Notes: generated by a model not told the origin, from the letters alone. A stretch of 64,000 nt of DNA from Dehalococcoidia bacterium (GCA_965247925.1 CBDFIB010000004.1:1051430-1115429), one strand, 5' to 3'; positions 846-64,000 are shown, numbered from the stretch's first letter. Program-made: numbers and translations.

Positions 846-2121
846 GAAGAAGCGCCTTTCGGGGTCTCGGAATGGCGAGAGGCGGCTTGAGGCCGCCTCC
901 GGCTTCGTGATCGCGGCCTCCTGACCTGCCTCCGGGTGCCTCTGGGGGCTCCTTGGCGGGGCGGAGGGCGCACTGCGCCTACGCCGCGGCAGTCTCGAGC
1001 CCGGCCATGCGCACCAGGTTGTAGGCGGCGGCGGTGAGTTCCAGCCAGCCGCGGTTGCGCTCGCGGCCCACGAAGCGCAGCTTGCGCCCGCCGCCCACGG
1101 TCTTCATCCAGCCGAAGACCTGCTCCACGATCTTGCGTCGCTTCTGACTCTGCCTGTAGCCGCGATGCCGCGTGGTACGCCCGTCCACGGCGCTGCTGCG
1201 GCGGCGGTCGTTTTGCGCCACGTGCGGCGTCACGCCGCGCGCGCGCAGCGCCGCCACGAAGTCGCGCGTGTCGTAGCCGCGGTCGGCGCCCAGCGTCCCG
1301 CAGCCGCTCACGCTGCGCTCCAGCATCGTGACCGCCGCTCGGCGTACCCGTTCGCCTCGGTCAGCTCCACATCCAGCACCAGGCCGTGCCGGTTCTCGGT
1401 CAGCAGATGGCCCAGGTAGCTCAGTTTCGCTGTCTGCCCCGACCCCTTTGTGTACAGCCGCGCCTCCGGGTCCGTGCCGGAACTATGCGTATCACGGCTG
1501 CGCCGCCGCCCCCGGAAGTCGACATCCGGGTTGCGCCCGCCCTGGGGTGGCTCCTGCTCGTCGCGCGGGCGGTAGCTCTTGAGCGAGGCCCAGGCCTCGA
1601 GCAGCGTCCCGTCCACCGTGAAGTGCTCGGCGGAGAGCAGCCGGCGCCGCTTCGCCTCGGCCACCACCTCGGCGAAGAAGGCGCGCGCGGCGTCCGCGGC
1701 GAGCAGGCGCTCGCGGTTCTTGGAGAAGGTCGAGGCGTCGAACGGTGCGTCTGAGATGTTGAGGTCGAGGAACCACTTGAAGAGCAGGTCGTAGCGCAGC
1801 CGCTCGCAGAACTGGCGCTCGCTGCGCACCGAGTAGAGGGCGATCAGCAGGCTCGCCTTGAGCAGGTGCTCGGGCGGGATCGAGGGCCGCTCGTTGAGTA
1901 CATCGTGTCGAACAGCCCCGAGAGCTGCTGCAGCGCGGAATCGACGATCGGTTTGATGCGGCGGATCGGGTGGTCGTCCGGGATGAAGGAGTCCGGCGTG
2001 ACCGCGAGCATGATGTTGGCCTGACGCTCGGCGTCACCGCGCATGGGGCAGCCTCCAGGCTACGCCCCCGCCGCCAGTCCTATCCTGCCAGACGACCGCC
2101 CCTTTTTCAGCAGCCTGCTAG
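846..2121 (-). mobile_element. IS5/IS1182-like insertion sequence, copy A (outer 11 nt of one terminal repeat displaced by IS110 copy A)
   Basis: 846..1872 matches 62974..64000 apart from a few SNPs; right terminus CAGCAGCCTGCTAG at 2108..2121 is the inverted copy of CTAGCAGGCTGCTG at 62961. Confidence 0.8.
979..2044 (-). pseudogene. IS5/IS1182-like DDE transposase split over three frames (two -1 shifts)
   Basis: ORFs 1844..2044, 1308..1829 and 979..1326 join into one transposase (FIPDDHPIRRI, ERLRYDLLFKWFLDL, GADRGYD, KIVEQVFGWMK) only after -1 shifts near 1890 and 1320. Confidence 0.8.
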
Positions 2122-2209: not shown

Positions 2210-3454
2210 CTACCCCCGAGGCAGGCCGAGGCCGCGGGTGGCGATGATGTTGCGCTGCACCTCGGAGGTGCCGCCGCGGATCGTCGCCGGGACGGCGCGC
2301 AGGTAGTTGTACGGCGGCGCGCCGCGCTGCGCGGCGTACGGGCTCTCCGGCCCATCCTCCGTGCCCTGCCCCCAGAGCTGCCCGTAGAGGCCGAAGGTCT
2401 TGATGCTCGTCGCGGAGAGCCGCTGCAGCAGCTCCGAGTTGTAGAGCTTCGCCGTCGACGCCTCGTAGTTCGGGACCATCCCCGCCGCCTGGATCGAGAT
2501 GATCCGCGCCGAGAACTGGAACATCACCTCCGTCTCGATCCGGCGGTCGGCGACCTCCGCACGCAGCGTGCCGCCGCTGCCCCCGAGGCGCGACTTCGCC
2601 GCGCCCTCCTCGCTCGCGCAGTAGGAGAGCAGCTTCTCGATGCCGAGCCGCATCGAGACCGCGCCCTCGATGTTGGAGCGCTCGAAGTCGAGCAGGTTCA
2701 TCGCGACGTACCAGCCGCGGTTCTCCTCGCCGACGATGTTGGCGACGGGCGTGCGCACCTCCTCGTAGAAGGTCTCGTTGAAGTAGTGGACGTCGCTCAT
2801 GTCGACCAGCGGCTGGACGCCGATGCCCGGCGTCCTGGCGTCGACGAGCAGGAACGAGATGCCTCGATGCTTCGGGGCGGTGGGGTCCGTGCGGGTGAGC
2901 AGGAAGAACCAGTCCGCGGTGTGCGCGGCGGAGGTCCAGATCTTCTGCCCGTTGATCACGTAGTCGTCGCCGTCGCGGCGCGCGCTGGTGGTGAGCGAGG
3001 CGAGGTCCGAGCCGGCCCCCGGCTCGGAGAAGCCCTGCGCCCACGTCACCTCGCCGGAGAGGATGCGCGGCAGGTGCTCGCGGCACTGCTCCTCGCTGCC
3101 GTTGAGGATCAGCGTCGGGCCCAGCATGTTGGTGCCGGAGCCGCCGACCGCCGGGGCGCCGGAGCGCGCCAGCTCCTGCTTGAGGATGAACTGCTCCATC
3201 GAGCTCAGCCCGCCGCCGCCGTACTCCTGCGGCCAGTGCGGCGCGACCCAGTGGTGCTCGGCGAGCGCGTCCGACCAGGCGACGGCGGCCTCGCGGCGCT
3301 CGGGATCCTCGGACTTGCGATCGAACTCCCACGTGCGCTCGAGGCGATGCGCGCCGACGCCGCCGCTGCGGTAGCGCGCCGGGAGGCGCTCGGCGATCAG
3401 GCTGCGGACCTTCTCGCGGAAGTCCTGCTGCTCCTCGGTGTCGCTCCAGTCCAT
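2210..3454 (-). CDS. acyl-CoA dehydrogenase family protein
   Basis: 414-aa ORF with ACAD-like layout and C-terminal GGTSEVQRNIIA motif; high GC3. Confidence 0.9.
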   Translation of the reverse strand: MDWSDTEEQQDFREKVRSLIAERLPARYRSGGVGAHRLERTWEFDRKSEDPERREAAVAWSDALAEHHWVAPHWPQEYGGGGLSSMEQFILKQELARSGAPAVGGSGTNMLGPTLILNGSEEQCREHLPRILSGEVTWAQGFSEPGAGSDLASLTTSARRDGDDYVINGQKIWTSAAHTADWFFLLTRTDPTAPKHRGISFLLVDARTPGIGVQPLVDMSDVHYFNETFYEEVRTPVANIVGEENRGWYVAMNLLDFERSNIEGAVSMRLGIEKLLSYCASEEGAAKSRLGGSGGTLRAEVADRRIETEVMFQFSARIISIQAAGMVPNYEASTAKLYNSELLQRLSATSIKTFGLYGQLWGQGTEDGPESPYAAQRGAPPYNYLRAVPATIRGGTSEVQRNIIATRGLGLPRG

Positions 3455-6897: not shown

Positions 6898-7073
6898 CTA
6901 GTTGGTTGAAGGCAGCACCGGCCACGGCGTGATGGGCGAGACGTGGCCGGGCTCCGCGGTGTCGAAGAACTCATGCACGCATGCACGTCCAACACCGGGA
7001 CTTGGGAGGGCTGCGCGCCGTCCCGGCGGGTCGTACGCCGGGACCGCATCGGGAAGGGAAGCAACCGGAGCCG

Positions 7074-8573
7074 ATGATGCACGACGCGCAGCAGTCTGAC
7101 GCGGGCGTAGTAGCGATGAAGGCGGCGAACAAGGGGGAGCAATTCCCGGCGGAGCCGCTGGAGCGAAGGGCCGCGGCCGAGAGGAATCCGCGAAGCACCG
7201 GCACGGTCCGGACGCAGAGTCGGGGTGCGGTGTCACCTGGAGCGGAGCGGATACGGCAGTTTGCAAAGGAGAATCCGGGGGAGAGGCTCACCGCGCTTCT
7301 GCACCACATCACGCCGGAGGCGCTCCGGGATGCGTATCTCGCGCTCAAGCGGGACGCAGCCCCGGGCGTGGACGGGATGACATGGCGCGAGTACGGGGAC
7401 GGGCTGGACGAGCGATTGCTCGACCTGCACGGCCGCGTACACCGTGGAGCGTACCGGGCGACTCCCGTGCGGCGGGTGGAGATCCCGAAGCCGGACGGGG
7501 GCGTGCGACCGCTGGGTATTGCGTCGCTGGAGGACAAGATCGTCCAGCGGGCGGTGGTGGAGCAGATCCTGAACCCGATCTACGAATCGGAGTTCTACGG
7601 ATTCAACTACGGGTTCAGGCCGGGGCGCTCGGCGCACGATGCGCTGGACGCGCTGGCCTACGCGGTGGATCGGCGCAAGGTCAACTGGATAGGGGAGGTG
7701 GACATCCGCCAGTACTTCGACAGCATCGACCGGGAGCAGCTGATGCAGCTCCTGGAGATGCGCATCGGGGACCAGCGGGTACTGCGTCTCATCCGGAAGT
7801 GGCTGAACGCCGGCGTCATCGACGCGGGGCTGGAGGTCGACGTGGTGCGGGGGACGCCGCAGGGGGCGGTGATATCGCCGCTGCTGGCGAACGTGTACCT
7901 GCACCACGTGCTGGACCGTTGGTTCGCGCGGGAATGGCGGCCGCGGGAGGTCCGGGGCGAGGCGTATCTCGTGAGGTACGCCGATGATTTCGTCCTGGGG
8001 TTTGAGCGCCGCAGCGATGCGGAGCGATTCATGGAGGCGGTCGGGGAGCGGTTCGCTACGTACGGACTGGAAGTGCACCCGGAGAAGACGCGCCTGTTGG
8101 AGTTCGGCAGGTTCGCGAGAGCGGACCGTGCGAAGCGCGGGGAAGGACGACCGGAGACGTTCGACTTTCTCGGGTTCACGCATTACTGCCGGACTCAGCG
8201 GAACGGGCGTTTCGGGCTGGGGCGCAAGCCGGTGGCGAAGCGAATGCGCCGCACACTGCAGGCCATCAAGGCCGAGTTGCGGAAACGCATGCACGCGAAC
8301 CCGAAGGTGACGGGTCGGTGGCTCGGGCGGGTGCTGCGCGGGTGGCTTGGCTACTACGCGGTGCCGACGAGCGCTCCGTCGCTGTCGCGGTTCGTCTGGT
8401 TTCTGAGGCGGCTGTGGCTGCGCGTCCTCCACCGGAGGTCGCAGCGGGGCTACTTCACCTGGGAGCGCCTGAACGCACTGTGCCGGGAACTCTGGCCCCG
8501 CGTCACTATCCTCCATCCGTGGCCGTCGGAGCGATTTGCCGTCAGGACTCAAGGCGGGAGCCGTATGCGTTAA
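7074..8573 (+). CDS. group II intron reverse transcriptase/maturase (copy 1)
   Basis: RT motifs incl. YADD (RYADDFVLGF), TPQGAVISPLLANVYL and maturase X region; no HNH tail. ATG at 7074 follows GGAG (track ORF starts 6981). One aa difference from copy 2 (G vs V in NWI-G/V-EVDI). Confidence 0.85.
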   Translation: MMHDAQQSDAGVVAMKAANKGEQFPAEPLERRAAAERNPRSTGTVRTQSRGAVSPGAERIRQFAKENPGERLTALLHHITPEALRDAYLALKRDAAPGVDGMTWREYGDGLDERLLDLHGRVHRGAYRATPVRRVEIPKPDGGVRPLGIASLEDKIVQRAVVEQILNPIYESEFYGFNYGFRPGRSAHDALDALAYAVDRRKVNWIGEVDIRQYFDSIDREQLMQLLEMRIGDQRVLRLIRKWLNAGVIDAGLEVDVVRGTPQGAVISPLLANVYLHHVLDRWFAREWRPREVRGEAYLVRYADDFVLGFERRSDAERFMEAVGERFATYGLEVHPEKTRLLEFGRFARADRAKRGEGRPETFDFLGFTHYCRTQRNGRFGLGRKPVAKRMRRTLQAIKAELRKRMHANPKVTGRWLGRVLRGWLGYYAVPTSAPSLSRFVWFLRRLWLRVLHRRSQRGYFTWERLNALCRELWPRVTILHPWPSERFAVRTQGGSRMR

Positions 8574-8648: not shown

Positions 8649-9431
8649 TCAGCTCGTGTGCGCACCTCCGTTCGCGGACCTGGTGACGCGGAGGCGGAAG
8701 GACTGGGCGCCGGTCTCGATGATGTGGGCGCGGAACGTGAGGCGGTCGACGACGGCGGCGGCGAGCCGGGGGTCGGCGAAGGTCTGGCCCCACTCGGAGA
8801 ACGGTGCGTTGGAGGCGACGGCGACCGAGGCGCGCTCCTCACGCCCGGTCAGGATCTGGAAGAGCAGCTCGGCGCCGCGCGGGTCGAGATGCACGTAGTT
8901 CAGCTCGTCGAGGCAGAGCAGGTCGAACCGGCCGTAGCGGGCGACGAGGCGCGAGAGCACGCGCTCGTCGGCGGCCTCGGCCAGCTCGTTCACGAGCGCC
9001 GCCGGCGTGACGTAGCGCACGCGCAGCCCGCGCTGGCAGGCGGCGATGCCGAGGCCGATCAGCAGGTGGGACTTCCCGGTGCCGCTCTCGCCGAGCAGCA
9101 CGACGGGCTCGCCGGCGTCGATCCAGGCACCGCGCTCGAGTGCGGTGAGCAGCGCCGGGTCGACGGTCGGCGCCGCCTGGAGGTCGAAGCCGGCGAGGTA
9201 CTTGAGGCGGGGGAAGCGGGCCTCGTGGATGCGACGCTCGCGGCGGCGGGCGTCGCGGTCCTCGAGCTCGGCGGTGAGCACCTCGGCCAGGTAGGCGCGA
9301 TGGCTGAGCCGGTCGCGCAGCGCCGCCTCGGCGAGCGGGCCGGCCTGCTGGCGTACGGTCGGGAGGTGCAGCGCGCGAGTGGTCGCCTCGATCTGAAGCG
9401 ACGCCGCCTGCTCGGTCAGGGGGGCGCTCAT
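8649..9431 (-). CDS. istB: IS21 helper ATPase IstB
   Basis: 260-aa ORF with Walker A LLGESGTGKSH and CLDELNYV Walker B; 4-nt overlap with istA. Confidence 0.9.
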   Translation of the reverse strand: MSAPLTEQAASLQIEATTRALHLPTVRQQAGPLAEAALRDRLSHRAYLAEVLTAELEDRDARRRERRIHEARFPRLKYLAGFDLQAAPTVDPALLTALERGAWIDAGEPVVLLGESGTGKSHLLIGLGIAACQRGLRVRYVTPAALVNELAEAADERVLSRLVARYGRFDLLCLDELNYVHLDPRGAELLFQILTGREERASVAVASNAPFSEWGQTFADPRLAAAVVDRLTFRAHIIETGAQSFRLRVTRSANGGAHTS

Positions 9432-10994
9432 CGCACGCTCCCGGCGAGCAGTCCGTCGTAGCGGGCCAGGCTCGGCGCTGGGCAGTCGAAGCGCCGCAGC
9501 GCCGGCCGCTCCACGACGCCGGTCTCGCGGGGGCGGTCGGCGATGCGGCGCGCCTCGATGGCGACGAGCGAGGGGTCGACGGACCCGACCCGCGAGACCG
9601 CGTCGAGCGCGGCATGCACCGCGGTGAAGGGCAGGCGCCGGTGCAGCAGCAGCACCTCGCTCAGCGCACGCGTGCCCGCGGCGTCACCGAGTCTGCGGCG
9701 GGCGCGCTGCCAGAAGCGCTCGTGCGCGGCGGTGAAGCCACCGCCTGAGCGTGCCTGCGCGAGCGCGCTTGAGCCGGGCAGCGCCCCGGGCTTGCGCGCC
9801 AGCACCTCGAGGTAGTGGTCGAGCACGAGCACCTCGGCGCCCTTGCGTGCGCTGCGCTCGTGGCGGGCGACGACCGCACCACCCGAGGTGACGGTCACCG
9901 TCGCACCGCCCAGGCGCACCTCCACCGCCCGGCCCGCGCAGGACGCCGGTACCGAGTAGCGCGAGCCACGCACGGCGATGCGTGCCTTGCCGTCGACCTT
10001 CGCGCGCAGCGGGACCGTGGGGTCGAAGGGCTCGGCGGGGAGCGTCCGCAGCGAGGGTCGCTCGGCCTCCGCCATCTCGCCGACCGTGGCGAGTCTGGAG
10101 GAGATGTGCCGGTCATCGTCTGAGCGGTCGGCCGCCTCCAGCAGTGCGTTCAGCTCGGCCAGGCTGGCGACACGGGGGACCGGCACGAGGTGGCGCCGGC
10201 GGAAGCGGCCGACCTCGCCCTCCACACCGCCCTTCTCGTGGGCGCCCCCGGCGCCGGGCTCGCAGAAGAAGGCGTCGAAGCCGAAGTGCGAGCGCAGCGC
10301 GACGAAGCGGTCGCGCTCGGTGCGCTCACGCCCCACGAGCACCCGCGTCACGGCCGCCTTGAGGTTGTCGTAACGGATGCGCTGAGGCACCCCGCCGAGG
10401 CGCTCGAAGGCGAGCGTGTGTCCTTCGAGCGCCTCCTGGCCCTCGCCCGGGAAACAGATGTGGACCGCCCGCCCCGAGTGCGAGAGCCGCAGCACGAACA
10501 TCGACAGCTCGGTCAGCACTCCGTCCAGCCAGACGCTCACCCCGCCGAAGTCGACCTCCGCCTCCTCCCCGGGCGGGTGCAACTGGGGGATCGTCACGAC
10601 CGCGCGGCCGGACTCCAGCTCACGGCGCACGCGGCCGACGTAGGCGCGCACCGTCGATTCGGCGACGGTGGCGCCGCGCTCGTCCACGAGCCGCTGCCAG
10701 ATCCGCCGCGCCGTGTGGCGCTGCTTGCGCGGCCCGCTCAGGTCCTCCGTCAACCACTGGCGGATCTGAGCGCGGTGCGGACCGAGTTGCGGTGCACTCG
10801 CCGAGGTCGGCTTACTTACGCGGCGGCGGCAGCGCCGACCTGAGCGCCTGCCGCACAGTCCGCCGGTGCACGCGGTGACGGCGCGCCAGCCCGCGTATCG
10901 ACGCGCCCACCTCGCGTCTGTCTCTCCGGATATGCTCAAACAGCTCCACTCTCGACAACTCCTCTGCCTTCGCTACGGGGAAGTCTTGCTCCAC
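9428..10994 (-). pseudogene. istA: IS21 transposase IstA, frameshifted by a 4-bp tandem duplication
   Basis: HTH-containing 60-aa ORF (10812..10994) and the catalytic ORF (9428..10939) are one gene. Top strand CTTACTTA at 10811..10818 (TAAGTAAG in gene sense) creates the stop; removing one TAAG restores ...PPPRKPTSASAPQL... Confidence 0.85.
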
Positions 10995-37371: not shown

Positions 37372-37929
37372 TCATGAACTCCCGCGCCCTATGCGGATGG
37401 CATCGAGGAACGACTCGAACTCCTCATCCGACAGGTCGATCGTGGGGACCGTGTCCGGGTCGAAGAGCTTCGGGTTGGGGTCGTCGAGGAAGGCCTGGAG
37501 GTCGAACGGCTCCCGCCACGAGCGGGTCTCACGCAGTTCCTCGACCCACACCTCGATCCACCTGTCGCGGTCGTCGTCGATGCAGCCCGTGCCGCGGACC
37601 TCGACGTACTGCGTCTCGAGCCGTCGCATCTCGGCGTCGAGAGCGGGGCCGAAGCGCAGCGGGATGTGGTCGGGACGGCCGTACTCGTGCAACTGGGCGG
37701 TGCGCTGCTCCATGTTCACGTCCCCCAGGCGGCCGCCGATAGCGGCCGCCACGGCATCGTCGGCGGGGCCGGCGCCGCCGTGGCGCGATGCCGGCGACGC
37801 GACGTCGCGCCTGCGGATCAGCACGCCGCCGTCGTGCGGCGTGACCTCGACCTCGGCGCCGCGGTGCAGGCCGAGGCGGTCACGCAGTGGCTTGGGGATG
37901 GTGAGGCGGCCTCGCCCCGAGATGCGCAT
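37372..37929 (-). CDS. AbrB/MazE/SpoVT-domain protein with an extended C-terminal region
   Basis: N terminus RISGRGRLTIPKPLRDRLGLHRGAEVEV; C-terminal 120 aa not recognised. Confidence 0.65.
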   Translation of the reverse strand: MRISGRGRLTIPKPLRDRLGLHRGAEVEVTPHDGGVLIRRRDVASPASRHGGAGPADDAVAAAIGGRLGDVNMEQRTAQLHEYGRPDHIPLRFGPALDAEMRRLETQYVEVRGTGCIDDDRDRWIEVWVEELRETRSWREPFDLQAFLDDPNPKLFDPDTVPTIDLSDEEFESFLDAIRIGRGSS

Positions 37930-38091: not shown

Positions 38092-38344
38092 AGGGATCAC
38101 TCGCCGGATTCCGTCCGTCCTGTCGGAGTGTCGAGGATCGTCCTCAGAGCGCGAACATCAATCGACACGCCAACGGAACATATTGCTTGAACGGAAGTTC
38201 CGCCTCGTCCTGTACTCCAAGTGCGCGGATGGCGTCGGCCCTCAGATCGTTCGCGGACGCGCGCACCCTTGTAGCGACCATTCGTAATGCGCCCGGGAGA
38301 TCTTCGGATGGCGGCGCCATGACAAGCTTCATCCAGGGTATCCC

Positions 38345-38728
38345 CACCTCGCCCACCTCGCCGAGCTGCTCTCAGCCGAGCTCGACGACCGCGAGGCGCG
38401 CCGCCGCGAGCGCCGCATCCACGAGGCGCGCTTCCCCAGGGCCAAGCACCTCGCCGACTTCGACCTGGCGGCGGCGCCCACGGTCGCCCCGGCGCTGCTC
38501 GCCGCGCTCGAGCGCGGCGAGTGGATCGCCTCGGGCGAGCCCGTCGTGCTGCTCGGCGACAGCGGCACTGGCAAGTCGCACCTGCTGATCGGGCTCGGCA
38601 TGGCCGCCTGCCAGCGCGGGCTGCGGGTGCGCTACACGACGGCGGCCGCGCTCGTGAACGAGCTGGCCGAGGCTGCCGACGAGCGCCTGCTCTCGCGTGG
38701 TCGCACGCTACGGCCGGCTCGACCTGCT
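38345..38728 (+). pseudogene. istB: istB fragment (codons about 46-172), also frameshifted near 38698
   Basis: LLGDSGTGKSHLLIGLGMAACQRGLRVRY...; 2-nt gap relative to the copy 1 reading SRLVARYG. Confidence 0.8.
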
Positions 38729-38899
38729 TCTATGAGGGACGGTCTTTCCGCAAGGCCGACGTGGCGGCCTCCTCCGCGTGCGGCGCTTTTCCTGGTCCGA
38801 GCCGATCCGCTCGTGATGTCCGGTAGCGGAGCCTGTGCCAAGCTTCTATCCGCACTCTCGGTGGGCCGCGCAGCGGGCCCGGTGCATGAAGGCACATCC

Positions 38900-38975
38900 T
38901 GCTTCCAGGGGGCGCTGCCATCTCTGCCGCGTCCTCGATGGGACAGCAGGTCGCTCGCAGTCGCCCGTGTTCGGC
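38900..38975. ncRNA. candidate bridge RNA target-binding loop (strand undetermined)
   Basis: 38945..38953 AGCAGGTCG is the reverse complement of left flank 38720..38728; 38920..38928 ATCTCTGCC equals right junction 40257..40265; hairpin GTCC-TCGATG-GGAC lies between them. Confidence 0.35.
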
Positions 38976-39053
38976 ATCACGTGCGTGGCCTCGTTCGCGC
39001 TCGGGGTCTTCCTTCCTGATCTCCGCTCTCGCCGCCTGCGGCGCCGCCTCCCG

Positions 39054-40142
39054 TTACGCGGCCTCGCGGGCCGCGGCGTGGCGCAGCGGTTCGTAGAACT
39101 CCCCACTCTTCCACAGCGCGAGCAGCAGCACCGCCAGCCGTCGTGCGACAGCCACGACCGCGCGCTTCTTCGCGTTCCGTGCTCCTGTTCCCGCGTAGCG
39201 CTCACCCCAGCGGCGCAGATCGGTATCCGGCCCGAAGGGACCGAGGATGTAGTGCGCAGCCTGCACCAGCAGCCGGCGTAGGCCTGCGTCGCCGCTCTTG
39301 CCGATGCCGAGTTGCGGCGCGCGCTCTCCTGACTCGCGCTGCCGCGGCACGAGCCCGAGGTAGGCTCCCACCTCCCGGTTCTTCGGGAAGCGGGAGGGGT
39401 CCTCGACCGTCAGCATGAACGTGAGCGCGGTGATCGGCCCCACGCCCGTGACCTGGCGCAGCGCTGCGGTCTCGGGGTGAGCCTCGCACAGCGCCTCGAC
39501 CTCTCGGCCGGCCGCCGCGATGCGCACGGTCAGCTCGCCTACCGCCTCCACCAGCGGCAGCAGCGCCGGGCGCAGCCCATCGGGGATGTGGTCCGCCGCC
39601 TTGCGGTGGAAGGCCCCGGCCGTGCACGACGGCAGCGCGGCGCCGCAGGCCTTGACGGACCCGCGCACGTGGTTGATGAGCAGCGTCCTGGAGCGCACCA
39701 GTGCGTCGCGGGCGCGCACCACGGCGAGGTCGTGCTGACTCTGCTCGCTCCTGTGGCGGATCGGTGCGAGCAGCTCCGGGTCGAAGCGCCCCAGCCGCGC
39801 CAGCCAGGCGGCGTCGAGCCGGTCGGTCTTGCGCTGGTTGCGGGCGATCAGCGCGACCTGGCGCGGGTTGGCGACCACCACCTCGTGGCCGAGCTCCGTC
39901 ACGACACGGCTCAGCCACGGCGAGCGCGACCCCGCCTCGAGCACGACCCGCGACCGCGGGAGGCCGGTCAGCGCTGCGCCCAGCGCCGCCGCTGTGGTGC
40001 GGACGCGCCGCTCGCGCAGCACCTCCCCGCCGGCACCGAGGGCGTGGACGTGGGTGTAGCGGTCGCCCACGTCGAGGCCGACGGTGATGGCGGGCCCATC
40101 CTTGCCCTCAATGCTCCGCGTCGTTGCGCTATCCTGCTGCAT
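39054..40142 (-). CDS. IS110 family DEDD transposase (362 aa)
   Basis: GLDVGDRYTHV N-terminal DEDD motif and C-terminal VTGVGPITALTFMLTVEDPSRFPKNREVGAYLGLVPRQRESG. Confidence 0.9.
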   Translation of the reverse strand: MQQDSATTRSIEGKDGPAITVGLDVGDRYTHVHALGAGGEVLRERRVRTTAAALGAALTGLPRSRVVLEAGSRSPWLSRVVTELGHEVVVANPRQVALIARNQRKTDRLDAAWLARLGRFDPELLAPIRHRSEQSQHDLAVVRARDALVRSRTLLINHVRGSVKACGAALPSCTAGAFHRKAADHIPDGLRPALLPLVEAVGELTVRIAAAGREVEALCEAHPETAALRQVTGVGPITALTFMLTVEDPSRFPKNREVGAYLGLVPRQRESGERAPQLGIGKSGDAGLRRLLVQAAHYILGPFGPDTDLRRWGERYAGTGARNAKKRAVVAVARRLAVLLLALWKSGEFYEPLRHAAAREAA

Positions 40143-40260
40143 GGCCGGTCTCCTACCTCTCTCAGGCTCCTTGCCGAGCCGCTACCTGGCCCATCGAGGC
40201 CGTGCTCCCGGCGGAGACGAGTATCCGCTGTGAGGAGGAGACCGGCCCTCATGCCTATCT

Positions 40261-40528
40261 CTGCCTCGACGAGTTCGGATACGTCCACCTCGACCCGCGC
40301 GGAGCCGAACTGCTCTTCCAGGTGCTCACCGAGCGTGAGGAGCGGGCGTCGGTGGCGGTCGCCTCCAACGCACCGTTCTCCGAGTGGGGCCAGACCTTCG
40401 CCGACCCCCGGCTCGCCGCCGCGGTCGTCGACCGGCTCACCTTCCACGCCCACATCATCGAGACCGGCAGCGACTCCTATCGCCTACGGGTCACCGCCGC
40501 CACGAGGGGAGGTGCGCAGACAAGCTGA
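40261..40528 (+). pseudogene. istB: istB fragment (C-terminal 88 codons)
   Basis: CLDEFGYVHLDPRGAELLFQVLTEREERASVAVASNAPFSEWGQTF... Confidence 0.85.
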
Positions 40529-62960: not shown

Positions 62961-64000
62961 CTAGCAGGCTGCTGAAGAAGCGCCTTTCGGGGTCTCGGAA
63001 TGGCGAGAGGCGGCTTGAGGCCGCCTCCGGCTTCGTGATCGCGGCCTCCTGACCTGCCTCCGGGTGCCTCTGGGGGCTCCTTGGCGGGGCGGAGGGCGCA
63101 CTGCGCCTACGCCGCGGCAGTCTCGAGCCCGGCCATGCGCACCAGGTTGTAGGCGGCGGCGGTGAGTTCCAGCCAGCCGCGGTTGCGCTCGCGGCCCACG
63201 AAGCGCAGCTTGCGCCCGCCGCCCACGGTCTTCATCCAGCCGAAGACCTGCTCCACGATCTTGCGTCGCTTCTGACTCTGCCTGTAGCCGCGATGCCGCG
63301 TGGTACGCCCGTCCACGGCGCTGCGGCGGCGGCGGTCGTTTTGCGCCACGTGCGGCGTCACGCCGCGCGCGCGCAGCGCCGCCACGAAGTCGCGCGTGTC
63401 GTAGCCGCGGTCGGCGCCCAGCGTCCCGCAGCCGCTCACGCTGCGCTCCAGCATCGTGACCGCCGCTCGGCGTACCCGTTCGCCTCGGTCAGCTCCACAT
63501 CCAGCACCAGGCCGTGCCGGTTCTCGGTCAGCAGATGGCCCAGGTAGCTCAGTTTCGCTGTCTGCCCCGACCCCTTTGTGTACAGCCGCGCCTCCGGGTC
63601 CGTGCCGGAACTATGCGTATCACGGCTGCGCCGCCGCCCCCGGAAGTCGACATCCGGGTTGCGCCCGCCCGGGGGTGGCTCCTGCTCGTCGCGCGGGCGG
63701 TAGCTCTTGAGCGAGGCCCAGGCCTCGAGCAGCGTCCCGTCCACCGTGAAGTGCTCGGCGGAGAGCAGCCGGCGCCGCTTCGCCTCGGCCACCACCTCGG
63801 CGAAGAAGGCGCGCGCGACATCGGCGGCGAGCAGGCGCTCGCGGTTCTTGGAGAAGGTCGAGGCGTCGAACGGTGCGTCTGAGATGTTGAGGTCGAGGAA
63901 CCACTTGAAGAGCAGGTCGTAGCGCAGCCGCTCGCAGAACTGGCGCTCGCTGCGCACCGAGTAGAGGGCGATCAGCAGGCTCGCCTTGAGCAGGTGCTCG
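62961..64000 (-). mobile_element. IS5/IS1182-like insertion sequence, copy B (runs past right edge), intact terminal repeat
   Basis: CTAGCAGGCTGCTGAAGAAGCG...; 62974..64000 collinear with 846..1872. Confidence 0.85.
63107..63957 (-). pseudogene. IS5/IS1182-like transposase, same -1 frame break as copy A
   Basis: ORFs 63107..63454 and 63436..63957 overlap exactly like 979..1326 and 1308..1829; 3 aa substitutions between copies. Confidence 0.8.

What the first reader, a model, noticed from the sequence alone, without database searches (positions are those of the whole stretch)
38900..38975. IS110/IS1111-like element carries a bipartite, opposite-strand match to its own insertion site: candidate bridge RNA guide loop
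Seen: the element (38729..40260) has 118 nt of non-coding DNA 5' of its DEDD transposase gene and 325 nt 3' of it (38729..39053). That layout is reported for the IS1111 subgroup, whose bridge RNA lies downstream of the recombinase gene. Inside the 3' arm, top-strand 38945..38953 AGCAGGTCG is the exact reverse complement of the 9 nt immediately left of the insertion (38720..38728 CGACCTGCT). Also, 38920..38928 ATCTCTGCC is identical to the right junction 40257..40265. Seven of those nucleotides (CTCTGCC) match the reconstructed uninterrupted target CGACCTGCT-CTGCC, including a CT core. The two matches lie on opposite strands, 16 nt apart, and are separated by a small hairpin GTCC-TCGATG-GGAC (38931..38944). 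A given 9-mer is expected in a 325-nt arm (both strands) with probability of roughly 0.25 percent. Left and right guides that pair with opposite target strands around an internal stem is the geometry described for the IS621 bridge RNA. I could not fold the RNA or decide which strand is transcribed.
Basis: partly seen in the sequence, partly recalled or inferred. Interest (0 to 1): 0.75.

Follow-up and report, generated by a model that had tools for sequence, protein, structure and literature searches.

The report
Bridge/seek RNA of an IS1111-type element
The two short matches are real: they are the target-reading guides of the small RNA that this IS1111-type jumping gene uses to choose its insertion site, a mechanism described in 2024, so this is a well-supported new example and not a new kind of system.

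Summary
Element 38729..40260 encodes an IS110-family DEDD transposase on the minus strand. It has the IS1111 layout: 118 nt of non-coding DNA upstream of the gene, 325 nt downstream, and 14-bp subterminal inverted repeats. It interrupts an IS21 istB relic at CGACCTG-CT-CTGCC. An unoccupied, perfect copy of that 14-mer sits in an intact istB at 8912..8925.

[quoted passage not shown] Four of its five proposed helices show compensatory changes.

In near-identical relatives the scaffold is 95% identical, but the two guide blocks are only 44-55% identical and change together with the flanks. An own-flank match of 7 nt or more occurs in 65% of elements, against 0.4% for mismatched guide/flank pairs. 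The extra 'AT' in the second 9-mer fits a handshake guide. A second loop repeats the right-end terminus plus core, with 41 of 41 A/G covariation.

Transcription, RNA ends and activity are untested. Four relatives sit in sites that do not match their own guides.

The parts
38729..40260 (-). IS1111-type insertion sequence. As delimited here it includes one copy of the 2-bp core (40259..40260).
   Evidence: The boundaries come from alignment with 28 close copies whose flanks differ and from the empty site at 8912..8925.
39054..40142 (-). DEDD transposase/recombinase gene, 362 aa. Candidate catalytic residues are D24, E69, D107 and D110. The GLVPRQRESG motif lies at residues 263-272.
   Evidence: Pfam PF01548 and PF02371. 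NCBIfam NF033542 at 238 bits. The C-terminal domain is similar to the ISCro4 and IS621 transposases in the PDB, E about 1e-7. Motif positions are; the catalytic assignment is by motif only.
38831..38970 (-). Predicted bridge RNA / seekRNA of about 140 nt. The true 5' and 3' ends are unknown.
   Evidence: Covariance model R1 scores 125.7 bits here, though this sequence was in the seed. [quoted passage not shown] 89% of cells are paired, 17 of 28 pairs show compensatory change, and 0 of 500 shuffles reach the observed values.
38957..38966 (-). 5' strand of the closing stem of the target-binding loop (GGGCGACUGC, with A bulged).
   Evidence: Helix 1 is 98% paired and 4 of its pairs show compensatory change.
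38945..38953 (-). Target guide 1, RNA CGACCUGCU. It is identical to the window + strand at 38720..38728, so it would pair with the opposite strand of that flank plus the core. It is equivalent to the IS621 left target guide when the window + strand is taken as 'top'.
   Evidence: Exact match. This block covaries with this flank: an own match of 7 nt or more in 33 of 51 elements against 0.4% of 2342 cross pairs.
38931..38944 (-). Distal hairpin of the target-binding loop (GUCC-CAUCGA-GGAC).
   Evidence: Helix 2 is 98% paired and 3 of its 4 pairs show compensatory change.
38922..38928 (-). Target guide 2, RNA GGCAGAG. It is complementary to the window + strand core plus right flank, CT-CTGCC (40259..40265). 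It is equivalent to the IS621 right target guide.
   Evidence: Exact match. An own contiguous match of 4 nt or more beyond the core occurs in 54% of 35 elements against 0.09% of 1084 cross pairs.
38920..38921 (-). Handshake-type extension, RNA AU. It is complementary to the last two element bases (AT, 40257..40258) that become joined to the core and flank.
   Evidence: AGAU is conserved family-wide. It covaries with the left-end start in L063 (TT/TT), L065 (CT/CT) and L002 (CT/CT); 24 of 30 elements match. The concept is from PMC11208158.
38910..38918 (-). 3' strand of the closing stem of the target-binding loop (GCAGCGCCC).
38898..38909 (-). Linker hairpin CCUG-GAAG-CAGG. It is specific to this clade; other relatives have a different or longer insert here.
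   Evidence: This hairpin also explains the chance direct repeat D3.
38886..38895 (-). 5' side of the donor-binding loop (GUGCC UUCAU). It may pair with the left end (UGCCU against AGGCA at 40251..40255), but this is not established.
   Evidence: Partial complementarity only. The own-versus-cross test shows no signal, 3.67 against 3.49 nt. The outer stem GUGCC/GGCAC is only 58% paired across the family.
38852..38885 (-). Inner helix of the donor-binding loop (GCACC / G-GUGC) enclosing the distal hairpin GGGCC...GGCCC (38863..38880).
   Evidence: Helix 4 is 97% paired, with compensatory changes in L037 and L039. Helix 5 is 89% paired and all 5 pairs show compensatory change.
38842..38849 (-). 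Donor guide on the 3' side, RNA AUAGAAG plus C. It is identical to the right-end terminus ATAGA plus core AG in transposase orientation. The following C sits at a handshake-like position.
   Evidence: A/G covariation with the right-end terminus (CATAGAAG or CATGGAAG) holds in 41 of 41 distinct elements. When the next base is not C, it equals the first flank base in 6 of 6 cases.
38732..38745 (.). Subterminal inverted repeat, right-end arm (ATGAGGGACGGTCT).
   Evidence: Inverted repeat I24, 14 nt, 93% complementary.
40239..40252 (.). Subterminal inverted repeat, left-end arm (AGACCGGCCCTCAT).
38720..38728 (+). Left half of the target plus core (CGACCTG-CT) in the interrupted istB relic.
40261..40265 (+). 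Right half of the target (CTGCC). The second core copy, CT, is at 40259..40260.
8912..8925 (-). Unoccupied perfect 14-nt target CGACCTGCTCTGCC, inside an intact istB (8649..9431) of a complete IS21-like element.

Best explanation
The element is an IS1111-group member of the IS110 family. Its right-end non-coding arm very probably encodes a two-loop guide RNA (a bridge RNA, also called a seekRNA), made from the same strand as the transposase gene.

Target loop (about 38910..38966). A 9-bp stem closes an internal loop. The 5' side of that loop, CGACCUGCU, can pair with one strand of the left target half plus the CT core. The 3' side, GGCAGAG, can pair with the other strand of the core plus the right target half. 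Two further bases, AU, can pair with the element's own end once strands have been exchanged; this is a handshake guide.

Donor loop (about 38835..38895). Its 3' side, AUAGAAG, repeats the element's right-end terminus plus core. How the left end is recognised is unclear. It may involve a short imperfect guide and/or protein contacts with the 14-bp subterminal repeats.

Proposed mechanism. The DEDD/serine recombinase bound to this RNA would bring the circular element junction together with the 14-bp target CGACCTG-CT-CTGCC. It would then recombine them at the CT core, which gives exactly the junctions seen at 38727/38729 and 40260/40261.

What is shown here: the anatomy, the conservation, the structural covariation, the guide-flank covariation and the empty site. 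What is inferred by homology to ISEc11, ISPa11, ISKpn4 and IS621: transcription, RNA ends, protein binding and chemistry.
For: - Exact matches, and an empty-site reconstruction with a 2-bp core.
- IS110-family RNA-guided transposase.
- IS1111 layout and subterminal inverted repeats.
[quoted passage not shown] There is also a 22.5-bit hit (E 1e-5) in a Cereibacter element whose transposase is 35% identical, and a weak hit at the correct position in ISEc11.
- Four helices show compensatory changes, and 0 of 500 shuffles reach the observed values.
- In the close family the guide blocks are 44-55% identical and the scaffold 95%.
- Own-versus-cross guide-flank matching is 65% against 0.4% on one side and 54% against 0.09% on the other. 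Explicit examples appear in unrelated subfamilies L032, L053, L059 and L072.
- The donor guide covaries with the right-end terminus in 41 of 41 elements.
- The order of top-strand and bottom-strand matches is the one published for IS1111 seekRNAs.
- The handshake position agrees with the IS621 structures.
Against: - There is no expression data. No promoter or terminator consensus was found in the element, and the RNA ends are unknown.
- No Rfam family matches, so the fold could not be compared with a curated bridge-RNA model.
- The strand assignment rests on geometry. G-U against A-C counts in the four good helices are 26 against 15, which is suggestive only.
- The 5' side of the donor loop shows no significant covariation with the left end, and its outer stem is poorly supported.
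- Four close relatives (L017, L018, L027, L028) sit in flanks that do not match their own guides.
Confidence: 0.9

Rival explanations
1. The matches arose by chance in GC-rich DNA and have no function.
For: The 9-mer CGACCTGCT is about 15 times commoner in this window than a uniform model predicts.
Against: The same two positions of a conserved scaffold match the flanks in dozens of independent elements with unrelated targets. Cross-pair controls give 0.4% and 0.09%.
Confidence: 0.01
2. The variable blocks act as DNA, not RNA. They would be element-borne single-strand or duplex DNA guides, as in IS200/IS605, or an attachment-site-like copy of the target read by protein.
For: No transcript has been shown here. 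Sequence identity alone cannot separate DNA pairing from RNA pairing. The donor-loop guide is also a DNA copy of the element end.
Against: The blocks are embedded in helices kept by compensatory changes that include G-U pairs. Homologous IS1111 and IS110 elements have been shown experimentally to use RNA derived from this non-coding region, and it works in trans (PMC11187229; PMC11208160). The transposase falls in the NCBIfam RNA-guided transposase family.
Confidence: 0.03
3. The RNA is made from the opposite (window +) strand.
For: Because the guides address both target strands, the antisense RNA would also be complementary to the target. The G-U against A-C excess is modest.
Against: On the + strand the 5' guide would pair with the right half and the 3' guide with the left half, in a polarity that matches neither IS621 nor the sequenced IS1111 seekRNAs. 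The handshake dinucleotide would also fall on the wrong side. Sequenced seekRNAs are sense to the transposase gene.
Confidence: 0.04
4. The guide RNA is real, but copies are often placed by RNAs from sibling elements acting in trans. If so, a copy's own guides do not always record how it arrived. This refines the main explanation and does not replace it.
For: L017 carries L009-type guides but sits in the site type matched by five co-resident L012-type elements in the same genome. The right flank of L028 matches the L001 guide over 9 nt. The donor loop and the element ends are shared across these variants. seekRNA is known to work in trans.
Against: For L018 and L027 no matching sibling guide was found. 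Recombination or gene conversion between copies is not excluded. In the window itself the guides match their own site perfectly.
Confidence: 0.45

Closest known systems
IS1111-family elements with seekRNA: ISEc11, ISPa11, ISKpn4, ISPst6 (Siddiquee et al. 2024, PMC11187229)
   Same: - DEDD transposase with the GL-P----SG motif.
- The long non-coding region lies downstream of the gene.
- Subterminal inverted repeats are present.
- Site-specific insertion with no duplication beyond the core.
- Two short RNA segments are complementary to the two target strands, with the top-strand complement 5' of the bottom-strand one.
- Close relatives are naturally retargeted by changes confined to those segments.
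   Different: - The transposase is only about 25-31% identical to the enterobacterial ones.
- The hosts are Chloroflexota (Dehalococcoidia/Tepidiformaceae) and, for the wider clade, Acidobacteriota, Gemmatimonadota and others.
- The RNA model built here detects ISEc11 only weakly, at 9.6 bits.
- The conserved unit here is about 140 nt with a clear second loop. The predominant seekRNAs reported are 82-96 nt.
- No experiments exist for this clade.
IS621 bridge RNA (Durrant et al. 2024, PMC11208160; Hiraizumi et al. 2024, PMC11208158)
   Same: - Two internal loops.
- The target loop has a 9-nt guide identical to left target plus core, and a 7-nt guide complementary to core plus right target, followed by a 2-nt handshake guide.
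- The target is a 14-bp 7+2+5 site with a CT core.
- The donor loop's 3' guide is complementary to core plus donor end, followed by a handshake position.
   Different: - The RNA lies in the right end, not the left end.
- Relative to the transposase gene, the target frame is inverted: the core reads AG in transposase orientation.
- The subterminal repeats are long.
- The donor loop's 5' guide is short or imperfect and does not covary.
- Protein similarity is detectable only in the C-terminal domain.
ISCro4 bridge recombinase (PDB 9t56)
   Same: It is the best solved-structure sequence match, E 4.9e-8 over residues 227-356. It belongs to the same RNA-guided DEDD/serine recombinase family.
   Different: The relationship is distant. 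Only the C-terminal Tnp domain aligns significantly.

Membership tests
IS110 family (RNA-guided DEDD transposases) | Transposase with an N-terminal DEDD/RuvC-like domain (PF01548) and a C-terminal Tnp domain (PF02371) | tested here: met
   Pfam E 2.8e-19 and 7.8e-20. NCBIfam NF033542 at 238 bits against a cutoff of 140.
IS110 family (RNA-guided DEDD transposases) | Catalytic D-E-D-D residues and a conserved serine in the G--P----SG motif | tested here: met
   GLDVG (D24), VLEAG (E69), KTDRLDA (D107, D110) and GLVPRQRESG at 263-272. These are assigned by motif; no structural superposition was done.
IS110 family (RNA-guided DEDD transposases) | Site-specific insertion that duplicates only a short core, with no terminal inverted repeats | tested here: met
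   Comparing the empty site with the occupied site shows only CT duplicated. The element ends are TCTATGAGG... and ...CATGCCTAT.
IS1111 group | The long non-coding region lies downstream of the transposase gene (right end longer than left end) | tested here: met
   325 nt against 118 nt.
IS1111 group | Subterminal inverted repeats of 7-17 bp | tested here: met
   14 nt, 13 of 14 complementary, starting 4 nt (right-end arm, from 38729) and 7 nt (left-end arm, from 40258, inside the core copy) in from the element termini. The ATGAG(A/G)(A/G)GG motif is conserved in relatives.
IS1111 group | The transposase clusters phylogenetically with IS1111-type transposases | not tested
   No tree with ISfinder references was built. 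The only indirect evidence is the GL-P----SG motif and 25-31% identity to annotated ISEc11- and IS5708-like genes.
Bridge RNA / seekRNA | A structured RNA in the long non-coding end, conserved with the transposase | tested here: met
   58 of 59 loci. Covariation is shown.
Bridge RNA / seekRNA | Two loop segments complementary to opposite strands of the target, covarying with the flanks | tested here: met
Bridge RNA / seekRNA | IS1111 order: the top-strand complement lies 5' of the bottom-strand complement | tested here: met
   In transposase orientation guide 1 equals the reverse complement of core plus right flank, and guide 2 equals left flank plus core.
Bridge RNA / seekRNA | A donor-binding loop complementary to both element ends | tested here: inconclusive
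   The 3' guide matches the right-end terminus plus core with 41 of 41 covariation. The 5' side shows only partial, non-covarying complementarity to the left end.
Bridge RNA / seekRNA | The RNA is expressed, binds the recombinase and is needed for transposition | not testable with these tools
   No transcriptome or biochemical data are available. The promoter and terminator scan was empty.
Rfam curated RNA families | A match to any curated covariance model | tested here: not met
   Only chance-level hits with E of 1.9 or more. No bridge-RNA family appeared among the matches.

The most novel reading that the evidence does not exclude
This clade may work as a shared pool of guides. Several near-identical elements in one genome carry different target loops but the same donor loop and ends, so any sibling's RNA could place any sibling's circle. 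That would explain copies such as L017 and L028, which sit in sites specified by another member's guides. Separately, only the right end is read by a covarying RNA guide. The left end may be recognised mainly through the long subterminal repeat, which would make donor recognition a hybrid of RNA and protein contacts, unlike IS621. A further observation fits with elements targeting each other: a different IS110-family element interrupts the donor-guide DNA in two genomes (L001, L008).
Probability: 0.35. Interest if true: 0.5.

Novelty: new member of a known kind. Interest (0 to 1): 0.35.

Why it matters
- It shows that the IS1111-type guide RNA can be recognised from sequence alone and then confirmed by comparative genomics in uncultured Chloroflexota and Acidobacteriota.
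- It provides a natural reprogramming panel. At least ten guide sets sit on a scaffold that is 95% identical, and for about seven of them the cognate target is seen in the element's own flanks. This is useful for learning the guide rules of IS1111-type recombinases, which have been studied far less than IS621 and ISCro4.
- It extends the evidence for handshake guides, on both loops, to the IS1111 branch.
- It gives a concrete testable prediction inside the same window: a perfect, still-empty target at 8912..8925.
- It does not reveal a new mechanism.

Tried and rejected
- Rfam 15 search of the element on both strands gave only chance-level hits.
- Megablast of the element against plasmids found nothing.
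- The sigma-70 promoter and intrinsic terminator scan found nothing, so there is no evidence on how the RNA is expressed.
- The single-sequence minimum-free-energy fold of the arm was uninformative in this GC-rich sequence.
- The direct repeat D3 (CCTGCTTC, 38898..38905), which resembles the left junction, was considered as another guide. It was rejected because it is simply the clade-specific linker hairpin CCUG-GAAG-CAGG.
- The donor-loop outer stem I proposed (GUGCC/GGCAC) is only 58% paired family-wide.
- A test of donor-loop 5' side pairing with the left end showed no signal above cross pairs.
- G-U against A-C counts were tried as a strand test. They are only weakly in favour of the transposase strand once the bad helix is excluded.
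- Complementarity between the left-end leader (40175..40202) and the target-loop hairpin does not covary in relatives, so it is treated as coincidence or a relic.
- MAFFT misaligned five relatives that carry an extra hairpin. This was solved with the covariance-model alignment.

Full report
**1. The observation**

- 38945..38953 AGCAGGTCG is the reverse complement of the 9 nt left of the insertion (38720..38728 CGACCTGCT).
- 38920..38928 ATCTCTGCC equals the right junction 40257..40265.
- A 4-bp hairpin (38931..38944) lies between them.
- ORF 39054..40142 (minus strand, 362 aa) carries Pfam DEDD_Tnp_IS110 and Transposase_20. It scores 238 bits on NCBIfam NF033542, 'IS110 family RNA-guided transposase'.
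- The ORF leaves 118 nt of non-coding DNA upstream and 325 nt downstream.

That 9-mer recurs 7 more times in the window on the two strands, so a hit in the arm is about 3-4% likely. The second 9-mer is unique to the element.

**2. The insertion site**

The flanks are two parts of an IS21-family istB gene. Joining them, and repairing a 2-nt deletion by hand, gives 195 bits on IstB_IS21. This copy is a relic: it is 5' truncated and has no istA upstream.

A complete IS21-like element lies at 8649..10939 on the minus strand. Its istB carries the uninterrupted sequence ...TTCGACCTGCTCTGCCTCGACGAG..., with a perfect CGACCTGCTCTGCC at 8912..8925. Comparing the empty and occupied sites shows that the insertion adds the element plus a second CT. 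The target is therefore CGACCTG-CT-CTGCC with a 2-bp core, the same 7+2+5 format as the IS621 target.

The element has 14-nt subterminal inverted repeats at 38732..38745 and 40239..40252, with 13 of 14 positions complementary.

**3. Relatives**

A scan of species-representative genomes returned 80 loci.
- 29 loci are 85-95% identical at the DNA level. They come from Dehalococcoidia and Tepidiformaceae metagenome-assembled genomes, and several genomes hold many copies.
- The other 51 encode transposases 49-59% identical. They come from Acidobacteriota, Gemmatimonadota, Chloroflexota and other phyla.

Mean pairwise identity is 0.44 and 0.55 in the blocks against 0.95 in the rest of the RNA.

**4. 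An RNA, and its fold**

RNAalifold on 24 diverse members predicts four helices, and 14 of 23 pairs show compensatory changes.
- A 9-bp stem closes an internal loop whose two sides are the variable blocks.
- A hairpin caps that loop.
- A conserved helix, UGCAC/GUGCG, changes in a compensatory way in L037 and L039.
- A second distal hairpin follows.

A covariance model built from this alignment finds the RNA in 58 of 59 loci, always on the transposase strand. In the window it finds one strong hit, 38831..38970 on the minus strand.

On the 52 distinct sequences, 89% of cells pair and 17 of 28 pairs have double changes. None of 500 shuffles, and no slid register, comes close. The fifth helix, which I added by hand as the outer stem of the second loop, is only 58% paired and should be treated as unproven.

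The model also detects a 22.5-bit hit (E 1e-5) downstream of a Cereibacter transposase that is 35% identical. It gives a weak 9.6-bit hit at the right place in the 3' non-coding region of ISEc11. No Rfam family matches.

**5. Do the guides track the flanks?**

Yes. In transposase orientation the junctions read LT-AG|AT...element...ATAGA|AG-RT, where LT and RT are the left and right target flanks. Guide 1 is the 5' side of the loop and equals the reverse complement of AG plus RT. Guide 2 is the 3' side and equals LT plus AG, usually followed by AU.

| Element | Guide 1 match | Guide 2 match |
|---|---|---|
| window | 9 nt | 9 nt |
| L007 | 9 | 7 |
| L012 | 9 | 7 |
| L020 | 8 | 11 |
| L010 | 8 | 9 |
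| L059 | 10 | 9 |
| L053 | 8 | 7 |
| L072 | 9 | 9 |
| L033 | 6 (9 of 10 positions, one mismatch) | 9 |

Over all distinct elements, the longest own match of guide 1 to the right flank is 7 nt or more in 33 of 51. It reaches that length in only 0.4% of 2342 cross pairs. Guide 2 matches 4 or more contiguous bases beyond the core in 54% of 35 elements, against 0.09% of 1084 cross pairs.

The targets are often conserved codons of other insertion sequences:
- the istB Walker-B region in this window;
- the istA N-terminus in L020;
- a DUF772/IS5-like transposase in L012;
- the leader of another IS110 element in L007.

**6. The extra 'AT'**

The other two are the terminal bases of the element.

In IS621 the right target guide is followed by a 2-nt handshake guide. 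After strand exchange, this guide pairs with the two donor bases next to the core (PMC11208158). Here AGAU is conserved across the family. Where the left end starts with TT (L063) or CT (L065, L002), the RNA has UU or CU.

If the window + strand is taken as 'top', the RNA reproduces the IS621 target loop exactly:
- a 9-nt left target guide identical to positions 1-9;
- a 7-nt right target guide complementary to positions 8-14;
- then the handshake guide.

This geometry holds only for an RNA read from the transposase strand. Relative to the transposase gene the target frame is inverted compared with IS621. That corresponds to the reversed order of matches reported for IS1111 seekRNAs against IS110 seekRNAs (PMC11187229).

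**7. The second loop**

Its 3' side contains AU(A/G)GAAG, which is identical to the right-end terminus (C)AT(A/G)GA plus the AG core. The A/G choice agrees with the element's own right end in 41 of 41 distinct elements. The next base is usually C. In the six elements where it is not C, it equals the first base of the right flank, which is a handshake-like signal.

The 5' side (UUCAU, preceded by GUGCC) is only partly complementary to the left end, and it shows no covariation above background (3.67 against 3.49 nt). How the left end is recognised therefore stays open. The long subterminal repeats typical of IS1111 elements may contribute.

**8. Exceptions**

Four close relatives do not match their own flanks.
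- L017 has L009-type guides. It sits in the site type specified by the five L012-type elements of the same genome.
- L028 is a relic, truncated at transposase residue 152 next to a serine-recombinase gene. It has window-type guides, but its right flank matches the L001 guide over 9 nt.
- L018 and L027 remain unexplained.

Guidance in trans by sibling RNAs is experimentally known for seekRNAs and is the simplest explanation. Recombination between copies is not excluded. It does not outweigh the family-wide signal.

**9. What is not shown**

- No transcript, promoter or terminator has been seen.
- The RNA ends are unknown.
- The strand is inferred from geometry. Only a modest G-U over A-C excess supports it (26 against 15 in the four good helices).
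- Catalytic residues are assigned by motif.
- The IS1111 group assignment rests on layout, subterminal repeats and the GL-P----SG motif. No tree was built.

**10. Verdict**

This is an IS1111-type insertion sequence with an intact transposase gene, intact ends, and an intact bridge/seek RNA whose target loop matches its own insertion site perfectly.

The mechanism has been known since 2024 (PMC11208160, PMC11187229, PMC11208158), so this is a new member of a known kind and interest is moderate to low. Value is added by:
- the natural panel of retargeted guides on a constant scaffold;
- the handshake covariation on both loops in the IS1111 branch;
- the apparently one-sided RNA reading of the donor;
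- the mis-sited copies that suggest guidance in trans;
- the empty perfect target 30 kb away in the same window.

Noticed in passing
window 8649..10939 (minus strand); target at 8912..8925: A complete IS21-like element is present, with istA (503 aa) and istB (260 aa). Its istB holds an unoccupied, perfect 14-nt target for this element's guides.
   Followed up: yes
window about 38330..38728 and 40261..40528: The interrupted istB is a decayed relic. It is 5' truncated, has no istA upstream, and carries a 2-nt deletion near 38698 compared with the intact paralogue.
   Followed up: partly
window 6981..8573 (+): A 530-aa ORF with reverse-transcriptase-like sequence (it looks like a group II intron RT/maturase) lies next to the IS21 element.
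   Followed up: no
window about 1746..1826 and 63874..63954 (minus strand): There are two identical copies of a DUF772/IS5-like transposase gene segment (RYDLLFKWFLDL) near both ends of the window. This is the same gene family that L012-type relatives target.
   Followed up: partly
window 37372..37929 (minus strand): A 185-aa ORF whose N-terminus looks like an AbrB/SpoVT-type (antitoxin-like) domain lies just upstream of the istB relic.
   Followed up: no
window 40175..40202 against 38930..38957: The leader upstream of the transposase gene contains GGCCUCGAUGGGCC. It is complementary over 10 contiguous nt (28 nt at 75%) to the target-loop hairpin CCCAUCGAGG. It does not covary in relatives whose hairpin loop differs.
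   Followed up: partly
L001:2797 and L008 at the same position: In two different genomes a second, unrelated IS110-family element (373-aa DEDD transposase, opposite strand) interrupts the bridge RNA gene. The break is exactly inside the donor guide, GGATAG|AAGC, which is the stretch that mimics the element's own end.
   Followed up: partly
L019, L021-L025, L071 and the left-end side of L008: Six or more copies share an identical non-target left flank (...GCCGGGCGCT|CTGGCATG) and the same right flank in istA. The element seems to have been amplified as part of a larger repeat, or after a deletion next to it.
   Followed up: no
L007 about 2900..3000; L010 about 2900..2965: Both loci carry tandem partial duplications of the last roughly 60 nt of the right end. 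In each case the duplicated unit starts right after an internal AG.
   Followed up: no
L040, L045-L052, L059-L062: One Acidobacteriota subfamily carries an extra hairpin of about 35 nt between the two loops of the RNA. The Chloroflexota clade instead has the short CCUG-GAAG-CAGG hairpin at that position.
   Followed up: no
L081 (E. coli plasmid NZ_CP119442.1): The annotated ISEc11 copy fetched for comparison lies about 620 bp downstream of an IS21 istB gene, which is another IS-rich context.
   Followed up: no
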